Shown in pieces: positions 3,452 through 7,172 of a stretch of DNA of 37,501 bases. Source of the DNA: Thermoplasmata archaeon (GTDB taxonomy: Archaea; Thermoplasmatota; Thermoplasmata; Lutacidiplasmatales; UBA184); contig JASHVP010000086.1 in the NCBI GenBank assembly GCA_030044475.1, positions 1 through 37,501 of the forward strand. Reading direction: 5' to 3'. The stretch's first letter is position 1, and each line of letters begins with the position of its first letter. A program made the position numbers and the translations under genes. Below the pieces are notes generated by a model. The model searched no databases. It saw only the letters and a program-made list of their open reading frames with translations, and was not told where the DNA came from.

Positions 3452-4231
3452 ATGGTCGAGGTCTCCGACGTCCGGATCGTCGACACGCGCGACGAGTCGC
3501 TCAAGGGGGCGATGATGGTCGTCGGATTCCCGACGCACGGGCTCGTGGGTTCGGTGGCGGCGTCCTACCTCGTCCACTCCCTCGACATGACGCTGGTCGC
3601 GTACATGATCAGCGAGGAGTTCCCGCCGACCGTGATCATGGAGGAAGGGGTGGTCAGCGCCCCGGTCCGGTTCTACGCGAGCAAGCTCGTCTGCGGGGTC
3701 GACCGCTCGTGCGACCAGCTGGTCGTCGTCATCGCCGATATCCAGCCCCCGGTCGGGATGTTGAACCGGCTCGGGCAGGTGCTGCTCGATTGGGCGGAAG
3801 CGCGCGGCATCCAGCTCGTGGTCGCGATCGAGGGGCAGCCGATCGAGAGCGAGGTCCGGGGCGACGCCCGGGTCGTGGCGATGGCGAACCGGGCCGCGGC
3901 GCCGCTGCTCGAGAAGTACACGTTCCAGGCGGCCAATGGGGTCGTGACGGGCCTGGCGGGCGGGATCCTCCTCGGGGCGATCGGCCGGACCACGCCCGTG
4001 CTCTGCCTCGTCGCCCAGGCCCACAAGGACTACCCCGACGCCCGGGCCGCGGCGAAGGTGATCGAGACCGTCAACCCCCTCGTTCCCCTGCTCGTGCTCG
4101 ACACGAAGCCGCTGCGCGAGAAGGCCCGCCAGATCGAGGCGGAGGTGCGCAAGACCTTGCAGCAGACCCGGGAGTCGATGTCCGCGATCCGGACGGCGGA
4201 AGCCGAAGGGCCAGGTGAGATGTATCGCTGA
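3452..4231 (+). CDS. PAC2-family proteasome assembly chaperone (archaeal PbaA/PbaB-like)
   Basis: 259 aa. MMVVGFPTHGLVGSVAASYLV resembles the PAC2/DUF75 N-terminal signature. The C-terminus ...GEMYR ends in a hydrophobic-Tyr-X (HbYX) tripeptide, the motif used by 20S proteasome alpha-ring binders. Confidence 0.75.
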   Translation: MVEVSDVRIVDTRDESLKGAMMVVGFPTHGLVGSVAASYLVHSLDMTLVAYMISEEFPPTVIMEEGVVSAPVRFYASKLVCGVDRSCDQLVVVIADIQPPVGMLNRLGQVLLDWAEARGIQLVVAIEGQPIESEVRGDARVVAMANRAAAPLLEKYTFQAANGVVTGLAGGILLGAIGRTTPVLCLVAQAHKDYPDARAAAKVIETVNPLVPLLVLDTKPLREKARQIEAEVRKTLQQTRESMSAIRTAEAEGPGEMYR

Positions 4232-4280
4232 CACCGCGCTCGGGCCGACCCCGGGTCCGAAGCTCCCGGCCGCGCCGCCG

Positions 4281-4718
4281 GTGTCGCTGCGCGGCTACCG
4301 TCCGTCCGACATGCCGTTCGTGGCCGCGATCGTCGCCGAGGCGCTCCACGAACACTACGAGCCGTCCCTCTACAGTTCCCTCTCCGCCGAGTGGCCGGAC
4401 GGGTTCCTCCTCGCGGCGGATGCCCGGGACGTCCCGGTCGGGTTCCTTCTCGGGGTCAACCAGGTCGAGCGGGAGGCGCGCGTGCTCATGTTCGCCGTCG
4501 ACCGGAACCTGCGCACGCATGGCGTCGGAGCCCTGCTCATGGATGCCTTCCTCGACCGGTGCCGGCAACGAGGGTACCGCCGGGCGACGCTCGAGGTGCG
4601 GGTGTCGAACGCGACGGCGATCCGGTTCTACACGCGCTACCAGTTCTCGGTGATCGACCTTCTGCGCTCGTACTATTCGGACGGCGAGAACGGGTACCAG
4701 ATGGCCCGTGACCTCTGA
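4281..4718 (+). CDS. GNAT N-acetyltransferase, RimI/archaeal Nat-like
   Basis: The acetyl-CoA binding block is RNLRTHGVGALLMDAFLDRCRQRGYRRATLEVRVSNATAIRFYTRYQF (the Q/RxxGxG/A motif). Two in-frame GTG starts exist, at 4215 (17-nt overlap with the PAC2 gene) and 4281. I list 4281 because it gives a typical ~145-aa RimI size. Confidence 0.75.
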   Translation: MSLRGYRPSDMPFVAAIVAEALHEHYEPSLYSSLSAEWPDGFLLAADARDVPVGFLLGVNQVEREARVLMFAVDRNLRTHGVGALLMDAFLDRCRQRGYRRATLEVRVSNATAIRFYTRYQFSVIDLLRSYYSDGENGYQMARDL

Positions 4719-4765
4719 CCCGGTCCTCCGCAGTCGCTAAAACCTCCTCCTCAGGTGCCCCGTCG

Positions 4766-6010
4766 ATGCCTGCCGCGTGGCCGTCCGCCGCCGATTTGAT
4801 GACGTCGCGTCCGGTGACGCTCCCGCACGACGCGCCGATCTCCCGGGCGCTCGGCCTGATGCGCACGCACGGGTTCCACGAGATCCCGGTCCTGCGCCGC
4901 TCGCGGCTCGTCGGTCTGCTCACGATCGAGTCGATCGCGCGCCGGGTCTCGCGCGCGCTGACGACCAAGGTTGAGCACCTGCTCATCCTTCCGCCGATGA
5001 TCGTCCCGACGGCGACGCTCCCGGAGGTCGCCGAGCAGCTGCTCGCGACCGGGCTGCGCGCCGCGCCGGTCGTCGGACGCCGGGGCGAGCTGCTCGGCAT
5101 CGTCAGCCGGACCGACCTCGTCCGGGCGTTGCCGGACCTCCCGCAGGTCGCGGGACCGAACACGCCTCCGGTCGAGACGATCGCCGGTCCCGCGGCCCAC
5201 ATCGTGCGCGAGGACGACCTGTGCCGCAAGCTGGTCGCGCAGATCCGGAGCCTGGAGGAGCACCCGTTCCCGGTCGTCGATCGGCGGGGGCGGCTCGTCG
5301 GGGCCGTCGGCGTGAAGGACCTCGGCGGGGTCCTCTGGCGTCCCACGACCCCGGGGAAGCGGGACGCGAAAGCGACCCGATCCGCCCTGGACGTCGAGGT
5401 CGCATCGATCATGCACTCCCCGGCCCTGACCGTCCCGGCGGGTACCAGCGCCGCCGAGGCGGCGCGCCGGATGTCGGAGGAGAACGTCTCGAGCGTGTTC
5501 GTCGTGGAGGACGGACGGCCGACCCGGGTCCTCGGCCAGGCCGACCTGCTCGGCCTCGTCGTGGGCCGGTCCCGCCCGGCGAAGGGGCGCGCCCGGGTGG
5601 AGGACGTCTACGTCGAGATCACCGGCCTGCGCGGGTCGGGGGACCCCGCGTTGCTCGCGGAGATCGACCACCTGGTCGCGCGGGGCCTCCGGCGGGTCGC
5701 GCGGTACGTCCGCCCGACGTTCTTCTCCCTCCACGTGGCCCCCCACGCCACCCATCGGACCAACGACCTGACCGTCGAGGCCCGCCTTCACACCGACTCG
5801 GGGATCTACTACGCGTCGCACACCGGCTGGAACCTGCTCGCCGGGGTCTCGGGCCTGCTGGACGAGCTCACCGCGCAGACGATGCGGTCCCGGGAGGCGA
5901 GCCGGGACCGCGGCCGACGGTCCCGGCGGACCCGCGAGGCGGACGAGACGGAGCCGGTCGACCCCGACCTCGAGGAACGGATCCGCGTCGCCACCGGCGC
6001 GGACGAGTGA
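4766..6010 (+). CDS. Four-CBS-domain (two Bateman modules) protein with a C-terminal RaiA/HPF-like domain and a basic/acidic tail
   Basis: 414 aa with an ATG start. Four CBS repeats are recognisable (..MTSRPVTLPHDAPI..; ..MIVPTATLPEV..; ..HIVREDDLCRKL..; ..IMHSPALTVPAGTS..). The C-terminal ~95 aa (VYVEITGLRGSGDPALLAEIDHLVARGLRRVARYV...LTVEARLHTDSGIYYASHTGWNLLAGVSGLLDELTAQ) follow the beta-alpha-beta-beta-beta-alpha pattern of RaiA/YfiA by eye. Confidence 0.8.
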   Translation: MPAAWPSAADLMTSRPVTLPHDAPISRALGLMRTHGFHEIPVLRRSRLVGLLTIESIARRVSRALTTKVEHLLILPPMIVPTATLPEVAEQLLATGLRAAPVVGRRGELLGIVSRTDLVRALPDLPQVAGPNTPPVETIAGPAAHIVREDDLCRKLVAQIRSLEEHPFPVVDRRGRLVGAVGVKDLGGVLWRPTTPGKRDAKATRSALDVEVASIMHSPALTVPAGTSAAEAARRMSEENVSSVFVVEDGRPTRVLGQADLLGLVVGRSRPAKGRARVEDVYVEITGLRGSGDPALLAEIDHLVARGLRRVARYVRPTFFSLHVAPHATHRTNDLTVEARLHTDSGIYYASHTGWNLLAGVSGLLDELTAQTMRSREASRDRGRRSRRTREADETEPVDPDLEERIRVATGADE

Positions 6011-6018
6011 GGCCGACG

Positions 6019-6405
6019 ATGCTCCCCGGGGGCCCGCGGAACCAACGCCAGATGGAGCAGATGATGCGCCGGCTCGGCATGTCGAGCGAGGCGCTGCCGG
6101 GGGTCGAGGAGGTCGTGATCCGGACGCCGACGAAGGAGCACGTGTTCCGCGCCCCGGAGGTCACCGTCCTGACCATCCAGGGAGTCCGGACGTACCAGGT
6201 CGTGGGCACCCCCGAGGTCCGGCCCCGCGGCGCGGGCCCGTCGGCGTCGGCCCCCGCCGCCCCGACCGGTCCGCCGGACGAGGACGTCCGCCTGGTCATG
6301 GAGCAAGCGAACGTCGCGCGCGAGGAAGCGGTGGAGGCCCTGGCCGCCGCGCACGGGGAGCCGGCCGAGGCGATCCTCCAGATCCTGACCCGACGGGGGA
6401 GCTGA
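6019..6405 (+). CDS. nac: Nascent polypeptide-associated complex protein (archaeal NAC, NAC domain + UBA domain)
   Basis: 128 aa. MLPGGPRNQRQMEQMMRRLGM is the typical archaeal NAC N-terminus, followed by a NAC beta-barrel (EEVVIRTPTKEHVFRAPEVTVLTIQGVRTYQV). The C-terminal UBA is DEDVRLVMEQANVAREEAVEALAAAHGEPAEAI. An SD-like GTGAGG (6007-6012) precedes the ATG. Confidence 0.9.
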   Translation: MLPGGPRNQRQMEQMMRRLGMSSEALPGVEEVVIRTPTKEHVFRAPEVTVLTIQGVRTYQVVGTPEVRPRGAGPSASAPAAPTGPPDEDVRLVMEQANVAREEAVEALAAAHGEPAEAILQILTRRGS

Positions 6406-6482
6406 CCCCGCGCGGGGTCCGGGGCGCCCGGGCCGGACGGTCCTCCTAATCTGCCCGGGTGGTCCTTTCGACGGCGACATCC

Positions 6483-7172
6483 ATGCCCGACGCGTGTCCG
6501 GATTGCGGCGCCGAGGTCGCCTTCGAGGTCCGAGCCGCCCAGGTCCGAACCGGCACCTGCGCGGCGTGCCACCACGCCTTCGCGATCGTCGGCAGCTCGG
6601 AGGAGTTCGTTCCGGAGGGCGGTCTCGCGCCGCCGCGGGCGGAGTCCGCTCCCGCCCCGTCCGGCGGACCGGAGTGCGAGGAGTGCGGCGGACCGTTGGT
6701 CATCCGGTCGACGCTCGACGGTGGTCTGGAGGCGACCTGCTCGACCTGCGAGACCCGGGCGGTCTTCGTTCCGGCCGAGGCCGTCGCGCGAGCCCCCGCG
6801 AACGACCGACGCCCGCCCCGGGGCCCGCGACCGGACCGCCCCGGGTCGCCGTACGGCCGCCCGGCGCGCCCGTGCCGCGAGTGCGGCGGCCCACTCCGGT
6901 TTTCCACGGATCCCGAGGGTCGGGTGGTGGGCGAGTGCGGTTCCTGCGGGAACCGATTCGTCCTTCCGCCCCGGCGGGAGGAGAGTCCCCGCGGACCGCC
7001 CCGATTCGTCTCCCGACCCGGCGGCGGCTACGCGACTCGCTATCCGCGGGACCGGCCGCGGACCGCCGGGGGGCCCCGCCGCGGCCGTCCGCGGTACGAC
7101 CGCCGGAGCGGCGAGGACGACGAGGACGACGACCGGCGCGAGCGCCGTCGCCCCCGCCGCCGCGAGTACTGA
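6483..7172 (+). CDS. Uncharacterised protein with three tandem zinc-ribbon modules and an Arg/Gly/Pro-rich, then acidic, tail
   Basis: There are three CxxC...CxxC units: CPDC..CAAC, CEEC..CSTC and CREC..CGSC, each followed by a xFxxVP strand. Third-position GC is very high in this frame. ATG 6483 is preferred over the upstream in-frame GTG 6459 because a TAAT box at 6447-6450 lies 33 nt upstream. Confidence 0.6.
   Translation: MPDACPDCGAEVAFEVRAAQVRTGTCAACHHAFAIVGSSEEFVPEGGLAPPRAESAPAPSGGPECEECGGPLVIRSTLDGGLEATCSTCETRAVFVPAEAVARAPANDRRPPRGPRPDRPGSPYGRPARPCRECGGPLRFSTDPEGRVVGECGSCGNRFVLPPRREESPRGPPRFVSRPGGGYATRYPRDRPRTAGGPRRGRPRYDRRSGEDDEDDDRRERRRPRRREY

What the first reader, a model, noticed from the sequence alone, without database searches (positions are those of the whole stretch)
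4766..6010. Four CBS domains fused to a RaiA/HPF-like ribosome-binding fold, inside a ribosome/proteostasis gene neighbourhood
After two Bateman modules, the last ~95 structured residues track E. coli RaiA (recalled from memory) position by position. VEITGLRGSGDPALLAEIDHLVARGLRRVARYV / FFSLHVAP / LTVEARLHTDSGIYYASHTGWNLLAGVSGLLDELTAQ parallels [28 protein letters not shown] / HIILSKEP / [35 protein letters not shown]. A charged tail follows. The flanking genes are ribosome- or translation-linked: a RimI/Nat-type acetyltransferase, NAC 8 nt downstream behind an SD-like GTGAGG, then Dph2, which modifies aEF2. CBS pairs bind adenine nucleotides or SAM. The architecture therefore suggests an energy-charge-gated ribosome hibernation or silencing factor in an archaeon.
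Basis: partly seen in the sequence, partly recalled or inferred. Interest (0 to 1): 0.6.

Follow-up and report, generated by a model that had tools for sequence, protein, structure and literature searches.

The report
Archaeal HibA/AHA ribosome hibernation factor

Summary
The ORF at 4766-6010 (+, 414 aa) is real. [quoted passage not shown]

**HPF/RaiA domain.** A profile of that domain from 60 relatives hits 23 bacterial or plastid HPF/RaiA/YfiA chains (E down to 7e-9). An AlphaFold model of it has only HPF/RaiA/pY structures as its top 36 hits (E. coli HPF: TM 0.83, rmsd 2.3 A).

**Family.** The whole protein aligns co-linearly with Pyrococcus abyssi HibA (PDB 9SR9; E 5e-15 alone, 4.6e-70 as a family profile). 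It therefore belongs to HibA/AHA, shown by cryo-EM and knockouts (Nat Commun 2026; EMBO J 2026) to bridge both ribosomal subunits and block the mRNA/tRNA sites. This scan reached the same verdict before on other DNA, including close relatives.

**Lineage-specific features.**
- The HPF domain is too diverged for Pfam PF02482.
- The CBS4 ribose-phosphate motif is degenerate.
- There is a conserved acidic C-terminal extension.
- There is a conserved TATA-like box, and nac is translationally coupled.

The PAC2-Ard1-HibA-NAC-Dph2 neighbourhood is conserved only in this genus (nac also in a sister genus), so it is weak functional evidence. Energy-charge gating remains unproven.

The parts
4766..6010 (+). 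hibA/aha gene, 414 aa including stop
   Evidence: ORF. It is co-linear with P. abyssi HibA 9sr9_H at E 5.3e-15. The family profile gives 4.6e-70.
4787..4942 (+). CBS1 (residues ~8-59)
   Evidence: Best Pfam CBS stretch is 9-61. Secondary structure from the AF2 model.
4970..5137 (+). CBS2 (residues ~69-124), with the canonical GIVSRTD ribose-phosphate motif
   Evidence: Pfam CBS hit with 4 stretches, AF2, motif table.
5171..5335 (+). CBS3 (residues ~136-190), motif GAVGVKD; G182 and D185 are invariant in the genus
5336..5392 (+). Long loop after CBS3 (residues ~191-209, WRPTTPGKRDAKATRSALD). It is the counterpart of the HibA 'PTC loop' / AHA 'loop 3', which inserts into the peptidyl transferase centre.
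   Evidence: The surrounding region 186-212 is 27 residues here and a median of 28 in 59 relatives. The model confidence is low here, with pLDDT <50 at 198-201. The role is taken from PMC13324472 and PMC13728122 and is inferred for this protein.
5393..5572 (+). CBS4 (residues ~210-269), with a degenerate motif RVLGQAD. R254 stands where 57/60 relatives have G. G257 stands where 50/60 have T/S.
5606..5929 (+). HPF/RaiA-like domain (residues ~281-388): beta1 282-286, alpha1 294-311, beta2 317-326, beta3 335-343, beta4 347-354, long alpha2 357-388
   Evidence: AF2. The Foldseek top 36 hits are all HPF/RaiA/pY. Profile against the PDB.
5930..6007 (+). Lineage-specific acidic C-terminal extension (residues 389-414) with the conserved motif D-P-[DE]-L-E-x-[KR]-[IL]-R
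   Evidence: The tail after Q371 is 43 residues, against a median of about 19 in relatives. The motif is conserved in the genus. The predicted helix 400-409 has low confidence.
4737..4743 (+). A/T-rich CTAAAAC element, 24-28 nt upstream of the ATG: a candidate TATA box for a leaderless or short-leader hibA transcript
   Evidence: Sequence. AT frequency is 0.70-0.85 at -28..-26 in 74 genus loci, against a background of about 0.2. Promoter function is inferred, not shown.
6007..6012 (+). SD-like GTGAGG overlapping the hibA stop codon, 6 nt before the nac ATG
   Evidence: The hibA-nac junction is -4 to +33 nt in the 40 genus loci printed, with ATGA overlaps or GGAGG-type motifs.
6019..6405 (+). 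nac (nascent polypeptide-associated complex, NAC + UBA), probably co-transcribed and translationally coupled with hibA in this genus
   Evidence: PF01849 at E 9.6e-15. Synteny.
4215..4718 (+). Ard1/Naa10-type N-terminal acetyltransferase (GNAT), 47 nt upstream. A neighbour, not part of the factor.

Best explanation
The gene encodes a HibA/AHA-type ribosome hibernation factor.

By homology with the solved P. abyssi HibA and H. volcanii AHA ribosome complexes, the following is inferred.
- The C-terminal HPF/RaiA domain binds the decoding region of the small subunit. There it fills the mRNA channel and the A/P tRNA sites.
- The N-terminal CBS tetrad sits on the large subunit. The long loop after CBS3 can reach the peptidyl transferase centre.
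- One polypeptide therefore clamps both subunits, keeps idle 70S ribosomes assembled and inactive, and protects them during starvation or stress.
- The CBS3/CBS4 interface probably binds an adenine nucleotide. Whether that controls binding or release is unknown.

Shown here: the domain architecture, the fold, the homology, single-copy conservation in relatives, and the gene organisation. Inferred: ribosome binding, nucleotide binding and physiological role.
For: **Architecture and homology**
- Four CBS domains.
- Full-length co-linear match to HibA 9sr9_H at E 5.3e-15. PDB 9SRE of that series is named in the paper as the HibA-PTC structure.
- The family profile hits HibA at 4.6e-70 and a second ribosome-bound 406-aa CBS protein, 9l96_a, at 2.8e-54.
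- A C-terminal-only profile finds 23 HPF/RaiA/YfiA chains.
- 55 of 60 relatives hit PF02482.

**Fold**
- The AF2 full model has pLDDT 84.8 and pTM 0.81.
- The CBS tetrad matches ribosome-bound SriA/SriD and Dri, plus MJ1225 and AMPK-gamma.
- The C-terminal model matches only HPF/RaiA/pY in its top 36 hits.
- The CBS3 loop is of family-typical length.

**Conservation and annotation**
- The gene is single-copy in the own genome.
- It is present in 31/31 relatives across the class and in most Thermoplasmatota families.
- JGI already names close relatives 'CBS domain-containing protein/ribosome-associated translation inhibitor RaiA'.

**Mechanism of homologs:**
Against: - There is no direct evidence for this protein: no transcript, ribosome-binding or nucleotide-binding data.
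- Its HPF domain is more diverged than in most relatives. Pfam PF02482 gives no hit for the protein or anywhere in the own genome, and the family consensus DWDL is GWNL here.
- The CBS4 G-h-h-[TS]-x-x-D motif is degenerate and varies within the genus.
- The MSA used for AF2 was shallow (54-89% identity).
Confidence: 0.88

Rival explanations
1. This is the same protein, with the first reader's specific mechanistic claim added. The cellular AMP/ATP ratio, read by the CBS pairs, gates binding to or release from the ribosome, making the protein an energy-charge switch.
For: - Two AMP molecules are seen at the CBS3/CBS4 junction of ribosome-bound AHA.
- Isolated HibA CBS module binds AMP (Kd 12 uM) more tightly than ADP (65 uM) or ATP (113 uM), and does not bind GTP or GMP.
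- The CBS tetrad of the window's model resembles AMPK-gamma.
- The CBS2 and CBS3 motif residues are intact, and G182 and D185 are invariant in the genus.
Against: - AMP or ATP at saturating concentration left HibA's three ribosome-bound conformations essentially unchanged. The authors could not conclude that ATP has a role in release.
- In the window's protein, the CBS4 motif at the known nucleotide site is degenerate (R254 for G, G257 for T/S). It varies within the genus, which suggests relaxed constraint.
Confidence: 0.3
2. The factor is functionally tied to nascent-chain factors. Co-expression with NAC, and proximity to the Ard1 N-terminal acetyltransferase, PAC2 and Dph2, would reflect a coordinated ribosome/proteostasis module rather than mere inherited gene order.
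For: - PAC2-GNAT-HibA-NAC-(variable gene)-Dph2 is conserved in nearly all ~98 loci of the genus, where HibA identity is 54-77%.
- nac also follows HibA in a sister genus (L148).
- The hibA-nac junction is -4 to +33 nt, with ATGA overlaps or SD motifs.
Against: - None of these genes is adjacent to the homolog in the other 36 Thermoplasmatota families sampled.
- Kin share gene order by descent.
- The Ard1-type enzyme is an N-alpha-acetyltransferase, and the N-terminus here is Met-Pro. From general knowledge, not tested here, that is a poor NatA-type substrate.
- The HPF domain and tail contain no lysine. The HVO_2384 K311/K313-type acetylation therefore has no counterpart there.
Confidence: 0.2
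3. In this lineage the HPF domain has decayed. The protein would then be a generic CBS-tetrad regulator, for example a metabolic or transcriptional one like HhpR, that no longer binds ribosomes.
For: - The window's C-terminal domain falls below every curated HPF model.
- Some family-consensus residues are changed, and CBS4 is degenerate.
Against: - The fold is predicted with core pLDDT above 90 and matches only HPF/RaiA.
- The domain is conserved at full length in all genus members. Invariant residues include G287, R289, D301, W355, N356 and Q371.
- The basic alpha2 helix and proximal tail are retained, with net charge +6 over residues 373-392.
- No other HPF-like gene was found in the genome, although it is only 74% complete.
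Confidence: 0.06
4. The C-terminal domain is an ACT or ferredoxin-like ligand-binding regulatory domain, not an HPF fold.
For: Both folds are small alpha/beta sandwiches. Pfam gives no hit.
Against: [quoted passage not shown]
- The Foldseek top 36 hits are all HPF/RaiA/pY, and no ACT or ferredoxin-like regulatory domain appears among the significant hits.
- The profile search finds only HPF/RaiA.
Confidence: 0.01

Closest known systems
HibA (Pyrococcus abyssi Q9UYR4, PDB 9SR9-9SRF/9T7H; Thermococcus barophilus hibA), Madru et al., Nat Commun 2026, PMC13324472
   Same: [quoted passage not shown]
- Both have a long loop after CBS3.
- The alignment is co-linear over residues 10-382.
   Different: - The pairwise alignment is weak (E 5e-15).
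- The window's protein is 22 residues longer, owing to an acidic C-terminal extension.
- The loop sequence lacks the family-typical G-E..G-E-K pattern.
- The CBS4 motif is degenerate.
- Lys is almost entirely replaced by Arg (6 K against 50 R) in a 72% G+C genome.
AHA (Haloferax volcanii HVO_2384, D4GWN2), Souza et al., EMBO J 2026, PMC13728122
   Same: It has the same 4xCBS-HPF architecture, AMPK-gamma-like tetrad and HPF-like C-terminal domain with an extended terminal helix.
   Different: - AHA's HPF domain is recognisable by PF02482: the Haloferax control genome rings. The window's is not.
- AHA is reported to be Lys-acetylated (K311/K313) and to co-purify with an inactive variant of the GNAT Pat2.
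- The window's HPF domain has no lysine, and its neighbouring GNAT is Ard1-type.
Bacterial HPF / RaiA (YfiA, protein Y) / plastid PSRP1(pY), Pfam PF02482 Ribosomal_S30AE
   Same: It shares the fold and is homologous by profile search.
   Different: - The domain is fused behind a CBS tetrad, not standalone or followed by the long-HPF dimerisation domain.
- It falls below the Pfam and NCBIfam thresholds.
- The alpha2 helix is longer and the beta2-beta3 loop is larger.
Dri (Pyrobaculum calidifontis, PDB 9E6Q/9E7F) and SriA-D (Methanosarcina acetivorans, PDB 9ZNF/9ZNG/9ZNI): CBS-tetrad-only archaeal hibernation factors
   Same: The CBS tetrad is structurally closest to these ribosome-bound proteins and scores highly by sequence profile.
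   Different: They have no HPF domain. Dri has two tetrads. AHA and Dri bind the large subunit in orientations about 180 degrees apart.
AMPK gamma subunit (eukaryotic energy sensor)
   Same: It shares the four-CBS disc, with TM about 0.7 normalised to the target.
   Different: There is no kinase partner and no HPF domain in AMPK-gamma. This is a resemblance of one module only.

Membership tests
HibA/AHA archaeal ribosome hibernation factors | N-terminal module of four consecutive CBS motifs forming a tetrad (two Bateman modules) | tested here: met
   Pfam CBS in 4 stretches at E 8.6e-39. The AF2 model has pLDDT mostly above 85 over residues 1-270. Foldseek matches CBS tetrads of SriA, Dri, MJ1225 and AMPK-gamma at E 1e-19 to 1e-14.
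HibA/AHA archaeal ribosome hibernation factors | [quoted passage not shown] | tested here: met
   AF2 secondary structure. The Foldseek top 36 hits are all HPF/RaiA/pY, with 6h4n_x at TM 0.83 and rmsd 2.3 A. The domain profile against the PDB reaches E 7e-9.
HibA/AHA archaeal ribosome hibernation factors | Full-length, co-linear sequence homology to an experimentally characterised member | tested here: met
   9sr9_H (P. abyssi HibA) at E 5.3e-15, residues 10-382 against 8-378. The family profile gives 4.6e-70, and 9l96_a gives 2.8e-54.
HibA/AHA archaeal ribosome hibernation factors | Long loop in/after the third CBS motif (PTC loop / loop 3) | tested here: met
   The loop is present with family-typical length: 27 residues against a median of 28 for region 186-212. 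Its sequence is diverged and the model confidence is low there.
HibA/AHA archaeal ribosome hibernation factors | Adenine-nucleotide binding at the CBS3/CBS4 interface | tested here: inconclusive
   The CBS3 motif residues G179, G182 and D185 are kept. In CBS4, G is replaced by R254 and T/S by G257, and these positions vary within the genus. Binding itself cannot be tested here.
HibA/AHA archaeal ribosome hibernation factors | [quoted passage not shown] | not testable with these tools
   Known only for P. abyssi and T. barophilus HibA and for H. volcanii AHA.
Bacterial-type HPF/RaiA (Pfam PF02482 Ribosomal_S30AE; NCBIfam TIGR00741/NF007780) | Match to the curated family model above its threshold | tested here: not met
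   There is no Pfam hit at E<=10 and none in the whole own genome. NCBIfam scores are 15.0 and 12.9 bits, against cut-offs of 125 and 40.9. Of 60 relatives, 55 do hit PF02482 at E<=1, the best at 4e-8.
Bacterial-type HPF/RaiA (Pfam PF02482 Ribosomal_S30AE; NCBIfam TIGR00741/NF007780) | Standalone ~95-120 aa protein, or long HPF with a C-terminal dimerisation domain | tested here: not met
   Here the domain is the C-terminal third of a 414-aa CBS fusion.
Dri / SriA-D (CBS-tetrad-only hibernation factors) | One or two CBS tetrads with no HPF domain | tested here: not met
   An HPF domain is present.

The most novel reading that the evidence does not exclude
In this soil/peat Thermoplasmata lineage, HibA has become a variant factor in three respects.
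- It is transcribed from its own conserved TATA-like promoter as a hibA-nac bicistron, which ties ribosome silencing to the nascent-chain chaperone NAC.
- It has relaxed or lost the canonical CBS4 nucleotide site.
- It has gained a conserved acidic C-terminal helix, D-P-[DE]-L-E-x-[KR]-[IL]-R. This helix could occupy the mRNA exit region or recruit a partner.

More broadly, a histone-deacetylase-family gene sits convergently next to hibA in 11 of 37 sampled Thermoplasmatota families. Haloferax AHA is reported to be Lys-acetylated and to co-purify with a Pat2 variant. Together these would point to acetylation control of archaeal ribosome hibernation.
Probability: 0.15. Interest if true: 0.45.

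Novelty: new member of a known kind. Interest (0 to 1): 0.2.

Why it matters
The biology, however, has already been published. HibA/AHA is reported in about 47% of archaeal genomes, and IMG already labels this protein's close relatives as CBS/RaiA fusions.

The value here is limited to annotation and a few leads.
- **Annotation.** NCBI calls these proteins only 'CBS domain-containing protein', and one record calls one an 'HPP family protein'.
- **nac coupling.** hibA and nac are conserved as a coupled pair in one genus, and nac is also adjacent in a sister genus.
- **CBS4 site.** A diverged CBS4 site could serve as a natural test of whether nucleotide binding matters for the factor.
- **Deacetylase neighbour.** Neither HibA/AHA paper mentions the recurrent convergent deacetylase gene across Thermoplasmatota.

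Tried and rejected
- **Single-sequence domain scans of the C-terminal part.** Pfam gave nothing at E<=10. NCBIfam gave only sub-threshold HPF hits.
- **PF02482 over the whole own genome.** No hit.
- **The search for related loci with diverse alignments A1 and A2.** Both failed because no stretch was conserved enough. The closer alignment A3 worked but returned only genus-level relatives.
- **Foldseek with the full-length model.** The results were swamped by CBS tetrads. The HibA entries are not in that fold library, whose cut-off is 2026-04-08. I therefore modelled the C-terminal domain alone.
- **Acetylation link for this protein.** The idea was that the adjacent GNAT mirrors the Haloferax Pat2-AHA link. 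I rejected it for two reasons. The GNAT is Ard1/Naa10/RimI-type, and the HPF domain and tail have no lysine.
- **K311/K313 mapping.** I did not hold the HVO_2384 sequence, so its K311/K313 could not be mapped.
- **ACT or ferredoxin-like reading.** Rejected.
- **Transcript evidence.** Neither the leaderless start nor hibA-nac co-transcription could be checked with reads.
Full report
**Observation**

The window is 63-75% G+C. It holds a 414-aa ORF at 4766-6010 on the + strand.

- Pfam finds four CBS stretches (E 8.6e-39) and nothing else credible.
- The last ~147 residues have no Pfam family even at E<=10.
- NCBIfam gives only sub-threshold hits on them: HPF NF007780 at E 0.024 and yfiA TIGR00741 at E 0.12.
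- phmmer against PDB sequences gives E. coli HPF (6h4n_x) at E 0.0046.

- The GNAT at 4215-4718 is Ard1/Naa10/RimI-type. Thermoplasma Ard1 4pv6 scores E 4e-31, and rimI TIGR01575 scores 79.5 bits against a cut-off of 86.4.
- nac (PF01849 plus a UBA domain) starts at 6019, 8 nt after the TGA at 6008-6010. GTGAGG lies at 6007-6012.
- PAC2 lies upstream and Dph2 downstream. A zinc-ribbon gene sits between nac and dph2.

**Is the C-terminal domain really HPF/RaiA?**

The answer is yes, and the evidence is as follows.

- A scan of 1.84 billion representative proteins gave many full-length co-linear relatives of about 370-420 aa at 24-63% identity. I aligned 60 of them as A1.
- I cut out their C-terminal domains as A4. 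As a profile, A4 hits 25 PDB sequences at E<=1e-3. Of these, 23 are bacterial or plastid HPF/RaiA/YfiA/protein Y, best T. thermophilus 2ywq at 7.4e-9 over nearly the whole domain. The other two are archaeal CBS-HPF proteins. Nothing else is significant.
- Taken singly, 55 of the 60 domains hit Pfam PF02482 at E<=1, best 4e-8. The window's own domain does not.
- AlphaFold2 on the whole protein gave pLDDT 84.8 and pTM 0.81. The C-terminal topology is beta(282-286)-alpha(294-311)-beta(317-326)-beta(335-343)-beta(347-354)-alpha(357-388).
- A separate model of residues 274-414 (pLDDT 83, core above 90) was searched against the PDB. The top 36 hits are all HPF/RaiA/pY. E. coli HPF 6h4n_x gives TM 0.83 and rmsd 2.3 A over 102 columns. 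No ACT or ferredoxin-like regulatory domain competes.

**What it is**

A full-text search found that this architecture is a recently characterised family.

- **HibA** (Madru et al., Nat Commun 2026, PMC13324472). It was found by cryo-EM of stressed Pyrococcus abyssi ribosomes.
  - Its C-terminal HPF/RaiA domain sits in the 30S mRNA/tRNA channel.
  - Its CBS module takes three positions on the 50S. One of them inserts a long CBS3 loop into the PTC.
  - Deletion in Thermococcus barophilus lowers 70S pools and delays recovery.
- **AHA** (Souza et al., EMBO J 2026, PMC13728122). This is HVO_2384 of Haloferax volcanii.
  - It has the same architecture and binding mode.
  - Two AMP molecules lie at the CBS3/CBS4 junction.
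  - The authors report 3160 homologs in 2723 archaeal species.

The window's protein aligns co-linearly with HibA chain 9sr9_H, residues 10-382 against 8-378, at E 5.3e-15. PDB 9SRE of that series is named in the paper. The family profile A1 gives 4.6e-70 for HibA and 2.8e-54 for a second 406-aa ribosome-bound CBS protein, 9l96_a. Both alignments run through the HPF domain. The CBS tetrad of the model matches ribosome-bound SriA/SriD and Dri, plus MJ1225 and AMPK-gamma, as reported for AHA. The loop region after CBS3 has family-typical length, 27 residues against a median of 28. JGI already names many 70-75% identical relatives 'CBS domain-containing protein/ribosome-associated translation inhibitor RaiA'.

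I therefore file the protein as a member of HibA/AHA. Ribosome binding, nucleotide binding and phenotype are inferred by homology and were not tested.

**Distribution**

- The window lies in a MAG of 1.67 Mb in 201 contigs, 73.65% complete. It carries one copy of the gene plus an unrelated CBS protein on contig C158.
- All 31 sampled relatives across the class have a full-length homolog.
- In a phylum-wide draw, most Thermoplasmatota families have one. Two families (0/10 and 0/17) have none among those searched. The HibA paper notes that Poseidoniia lack identifiable hibernation factors.
- Named close relatives are all 'Thermoplasmata archaeon' MAGs, by their isolate names largely from soil and peat projects.

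**Neighbourhood**

- In nearly all ~98 loci of the window's genus, the order PAC2-GNAT-HibA-NAC-(variable gene)-Dph2 is kept. HibA identity there is 54-77%.
- nac also follows HibA in a sister genus (L148).
- Outside this family, none of these genes flanks the homolog in 36 further families sampled. The one exception is a related GNAT about 1.65 kb away on the other strand in one family.

The 'ribosome/proteostasis neighbourhood' is thus a lineage trait and weak evidence of function.

Within the genus, two regulatory features are conserved.

- An A/T-rich element (consensus gCTAAAgCC; window 4737-4743) lies 24-28 nt before the ATG. AT frequency is 0.70-0.85 at -28..-26, against about 0.2 around it, in 74 loci. 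This is the geometry of an archaeal TATA box for a leaderless or short-leader mRNA.
- The hibA-nac junction spans -4 (ATGA overlap) to +33 nt in the 40 loci printed, often with GGAGG-type motifs.

These features suggest a hibA-nac bicistron. They fit an earlier first-reader note on this window about TATA and SD usage.

**Lineage-specific features of the protein**

1. The HPF domain is too diverged for PF02482.
2. The CBS4 ribose-phosphate motif G-h-h-[TS]-x-x-D reads R254-V-L-G257-Q-A-D260. Among the 60 family members, 57 have G and 50 have T/S at those two positions. Within the genus, position 254 is R 46 / G 19 / S 5 of 75, whereas G182 and D185 of CBS3 are invariant. The published nucleotide site lies at the CBS3/CBS4 interface, so nucleotide binding may be altered here.
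3. The tail after Q371 is 43 residues, against a median of about 19. It ends in an acidic stretch with a genus-conserved D-P-[DE]-L-E-x-[KR]-[IL]-R motif.
4. The protein has 6 Lys and 50 Arg, with no Lys in the HPF domain or tail.

**Energy-charge gating**

The gating claim is plausible but unproven.

- HibA-CM binds AMP at Kd 12 uM, ADP at 65 uM and ATP at 113 uM.
- AMP or ATP did not change HibA's conformational landscape on the ribosome.
- The CBS4 site is degenerate in this protein.

**Side observation**

In 11 of 37 Thermoplasmatota families sampled, mostly with one or two loci each, a histone-deacetylase-family gene (PF00850) lies convergent within 500 nt of the 3' end of hibA. It is 2.7 kb away in a twelfth family. 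The own genome's single PF00850 gene is on another contig.

Independently, Haloferax HVO_2384 co-purified with an inactive Pat2 GNAT variant and was reported acetylated at K311/K313 (PMC12607858). Neither HibA/AHA paper mentions acetylation of the factor or a deacetylase.

This lead concerns the family rather than the window's protein, whose HPF domain has no lysine. Relatives are not independent, so the count is descriptive only.

**Earlier notes of this scan**

The same architecture has been reported in at least 43 other genomes, with the same verdict. These include soil Thermoplasmata relatives, and one note stresses the nac coupling. I reached HibA/AHA from the literature search before reading those notes.

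**Verdict**

The protein is a new, somewhat divergent member of a known kind, and the interest is low.

Noticed in passing
L025, L026, L028, L031, L120, L121, L122, L129, L132, L138, L139, L150, L151, L155 (downstream of the HibA homolog); L123 at 2.7 kb: A histone-deacetylase-family gene (PF00850) lies convergent, 7-420 nt from the 3' end of the HibA/AHA gene, in 11 of 37 sampled Thermoplasmatota families. Haloferax AHA is reported to be Lys-acetylated and to co-purify with a Pat2 GNAT variant (PMC12607858). The two HibA/AHA papers do not mention this. The pattern is absent from the window's family, and the own genome's PF00850 gene is on contig C60.
   Followed up: partly
window 4737-4743 and 6007-6021; L040-L119: Two features are conserved across the genus. 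An A/T-rich gCTAAAgCC element lies 24-28 nt upstream of the hibA ATG and is TATA-like. The hibA-nac junction is tight, from -4 to +33 nt, with ATGA overlaps or GGAGG motifs. Together they suggest a leaderless hibA-nac bicistron.
   Followed up: partly
window 5525-5545 (residues 254-260): The CBS4 ribose-phosphate motif is degenerate (RVLGQAD instead of G-h-h-T/S-x-x-D). It varies within the genus (position 254: R 46, G 19, S 5 of 75), while the CBS3 motif is invariant.
   Followed up: yes
window 5930-6007 (residues 389-414): There is a lineage-specific acidic C-terminal extension with the conserved motif D-P-[DE]-L-E-x-[KR]-[IL]-R. Most family members end about 20-25 residues earlier.
   Followed up: partly
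window 6459-7172: The zinc-ribbon gene between nac and dph2 has no tblastn match (E<1e-4) at the same position in any other genus locus, although nac and dph2 are conserved around it. In most loci the nac-dph2 interval is shorter, about 450-550 nt.
   Followed up: no
L028:1885-5131: In one Thermoplasmata family, the HibA homolog directly follows two exosome RNase PH genes (Rrp41/Rrp42-like) and ribosomal protein L37ae on the same strand. An earlier scan note reported a similar exosome linkage in another archaeal group.
   Followed up: no
L027:1746-2999 and L030:2715-3968: In family f3, an HD-domain plus HD_assoc_2 protein gene follows the HibA homolog on the same strand at 4-18 nt.
   Followed up: no
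L022:5247-7211 and L033:1871-3834: In family f2, a GvpD/KaiC-like P-loop ATPase gene lies divergent from the HibA homolog. It is followed by an Ard1/RimI-type GNAT that is 45% identical to the window's GNAT.
   Followed up: no
table (families f18 and f35): Two Thermoplasmatota families have no HibA/CBS-tetrad match at all (0/10 and 0/17 genomes, all at least 92% complete). The HibA paper notes that Poseidoniia lack known hibernation factors.
   Followed up: no
L059 (DAIDCO010000032.1): A record titled 'bacterium isolate clean3188' carries the same archaeal PAC2-GNAT-HibA-NAC block at 68% HibA identity. The MAG is probably mislabelled.
   Followed up: no
G000:C158:5688-6038 (L002): There is a second, unrelated CBS-pair protein in the own genome: 34% identity over residues 8-124, in a 365-aa open frame.
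   Followed up: no
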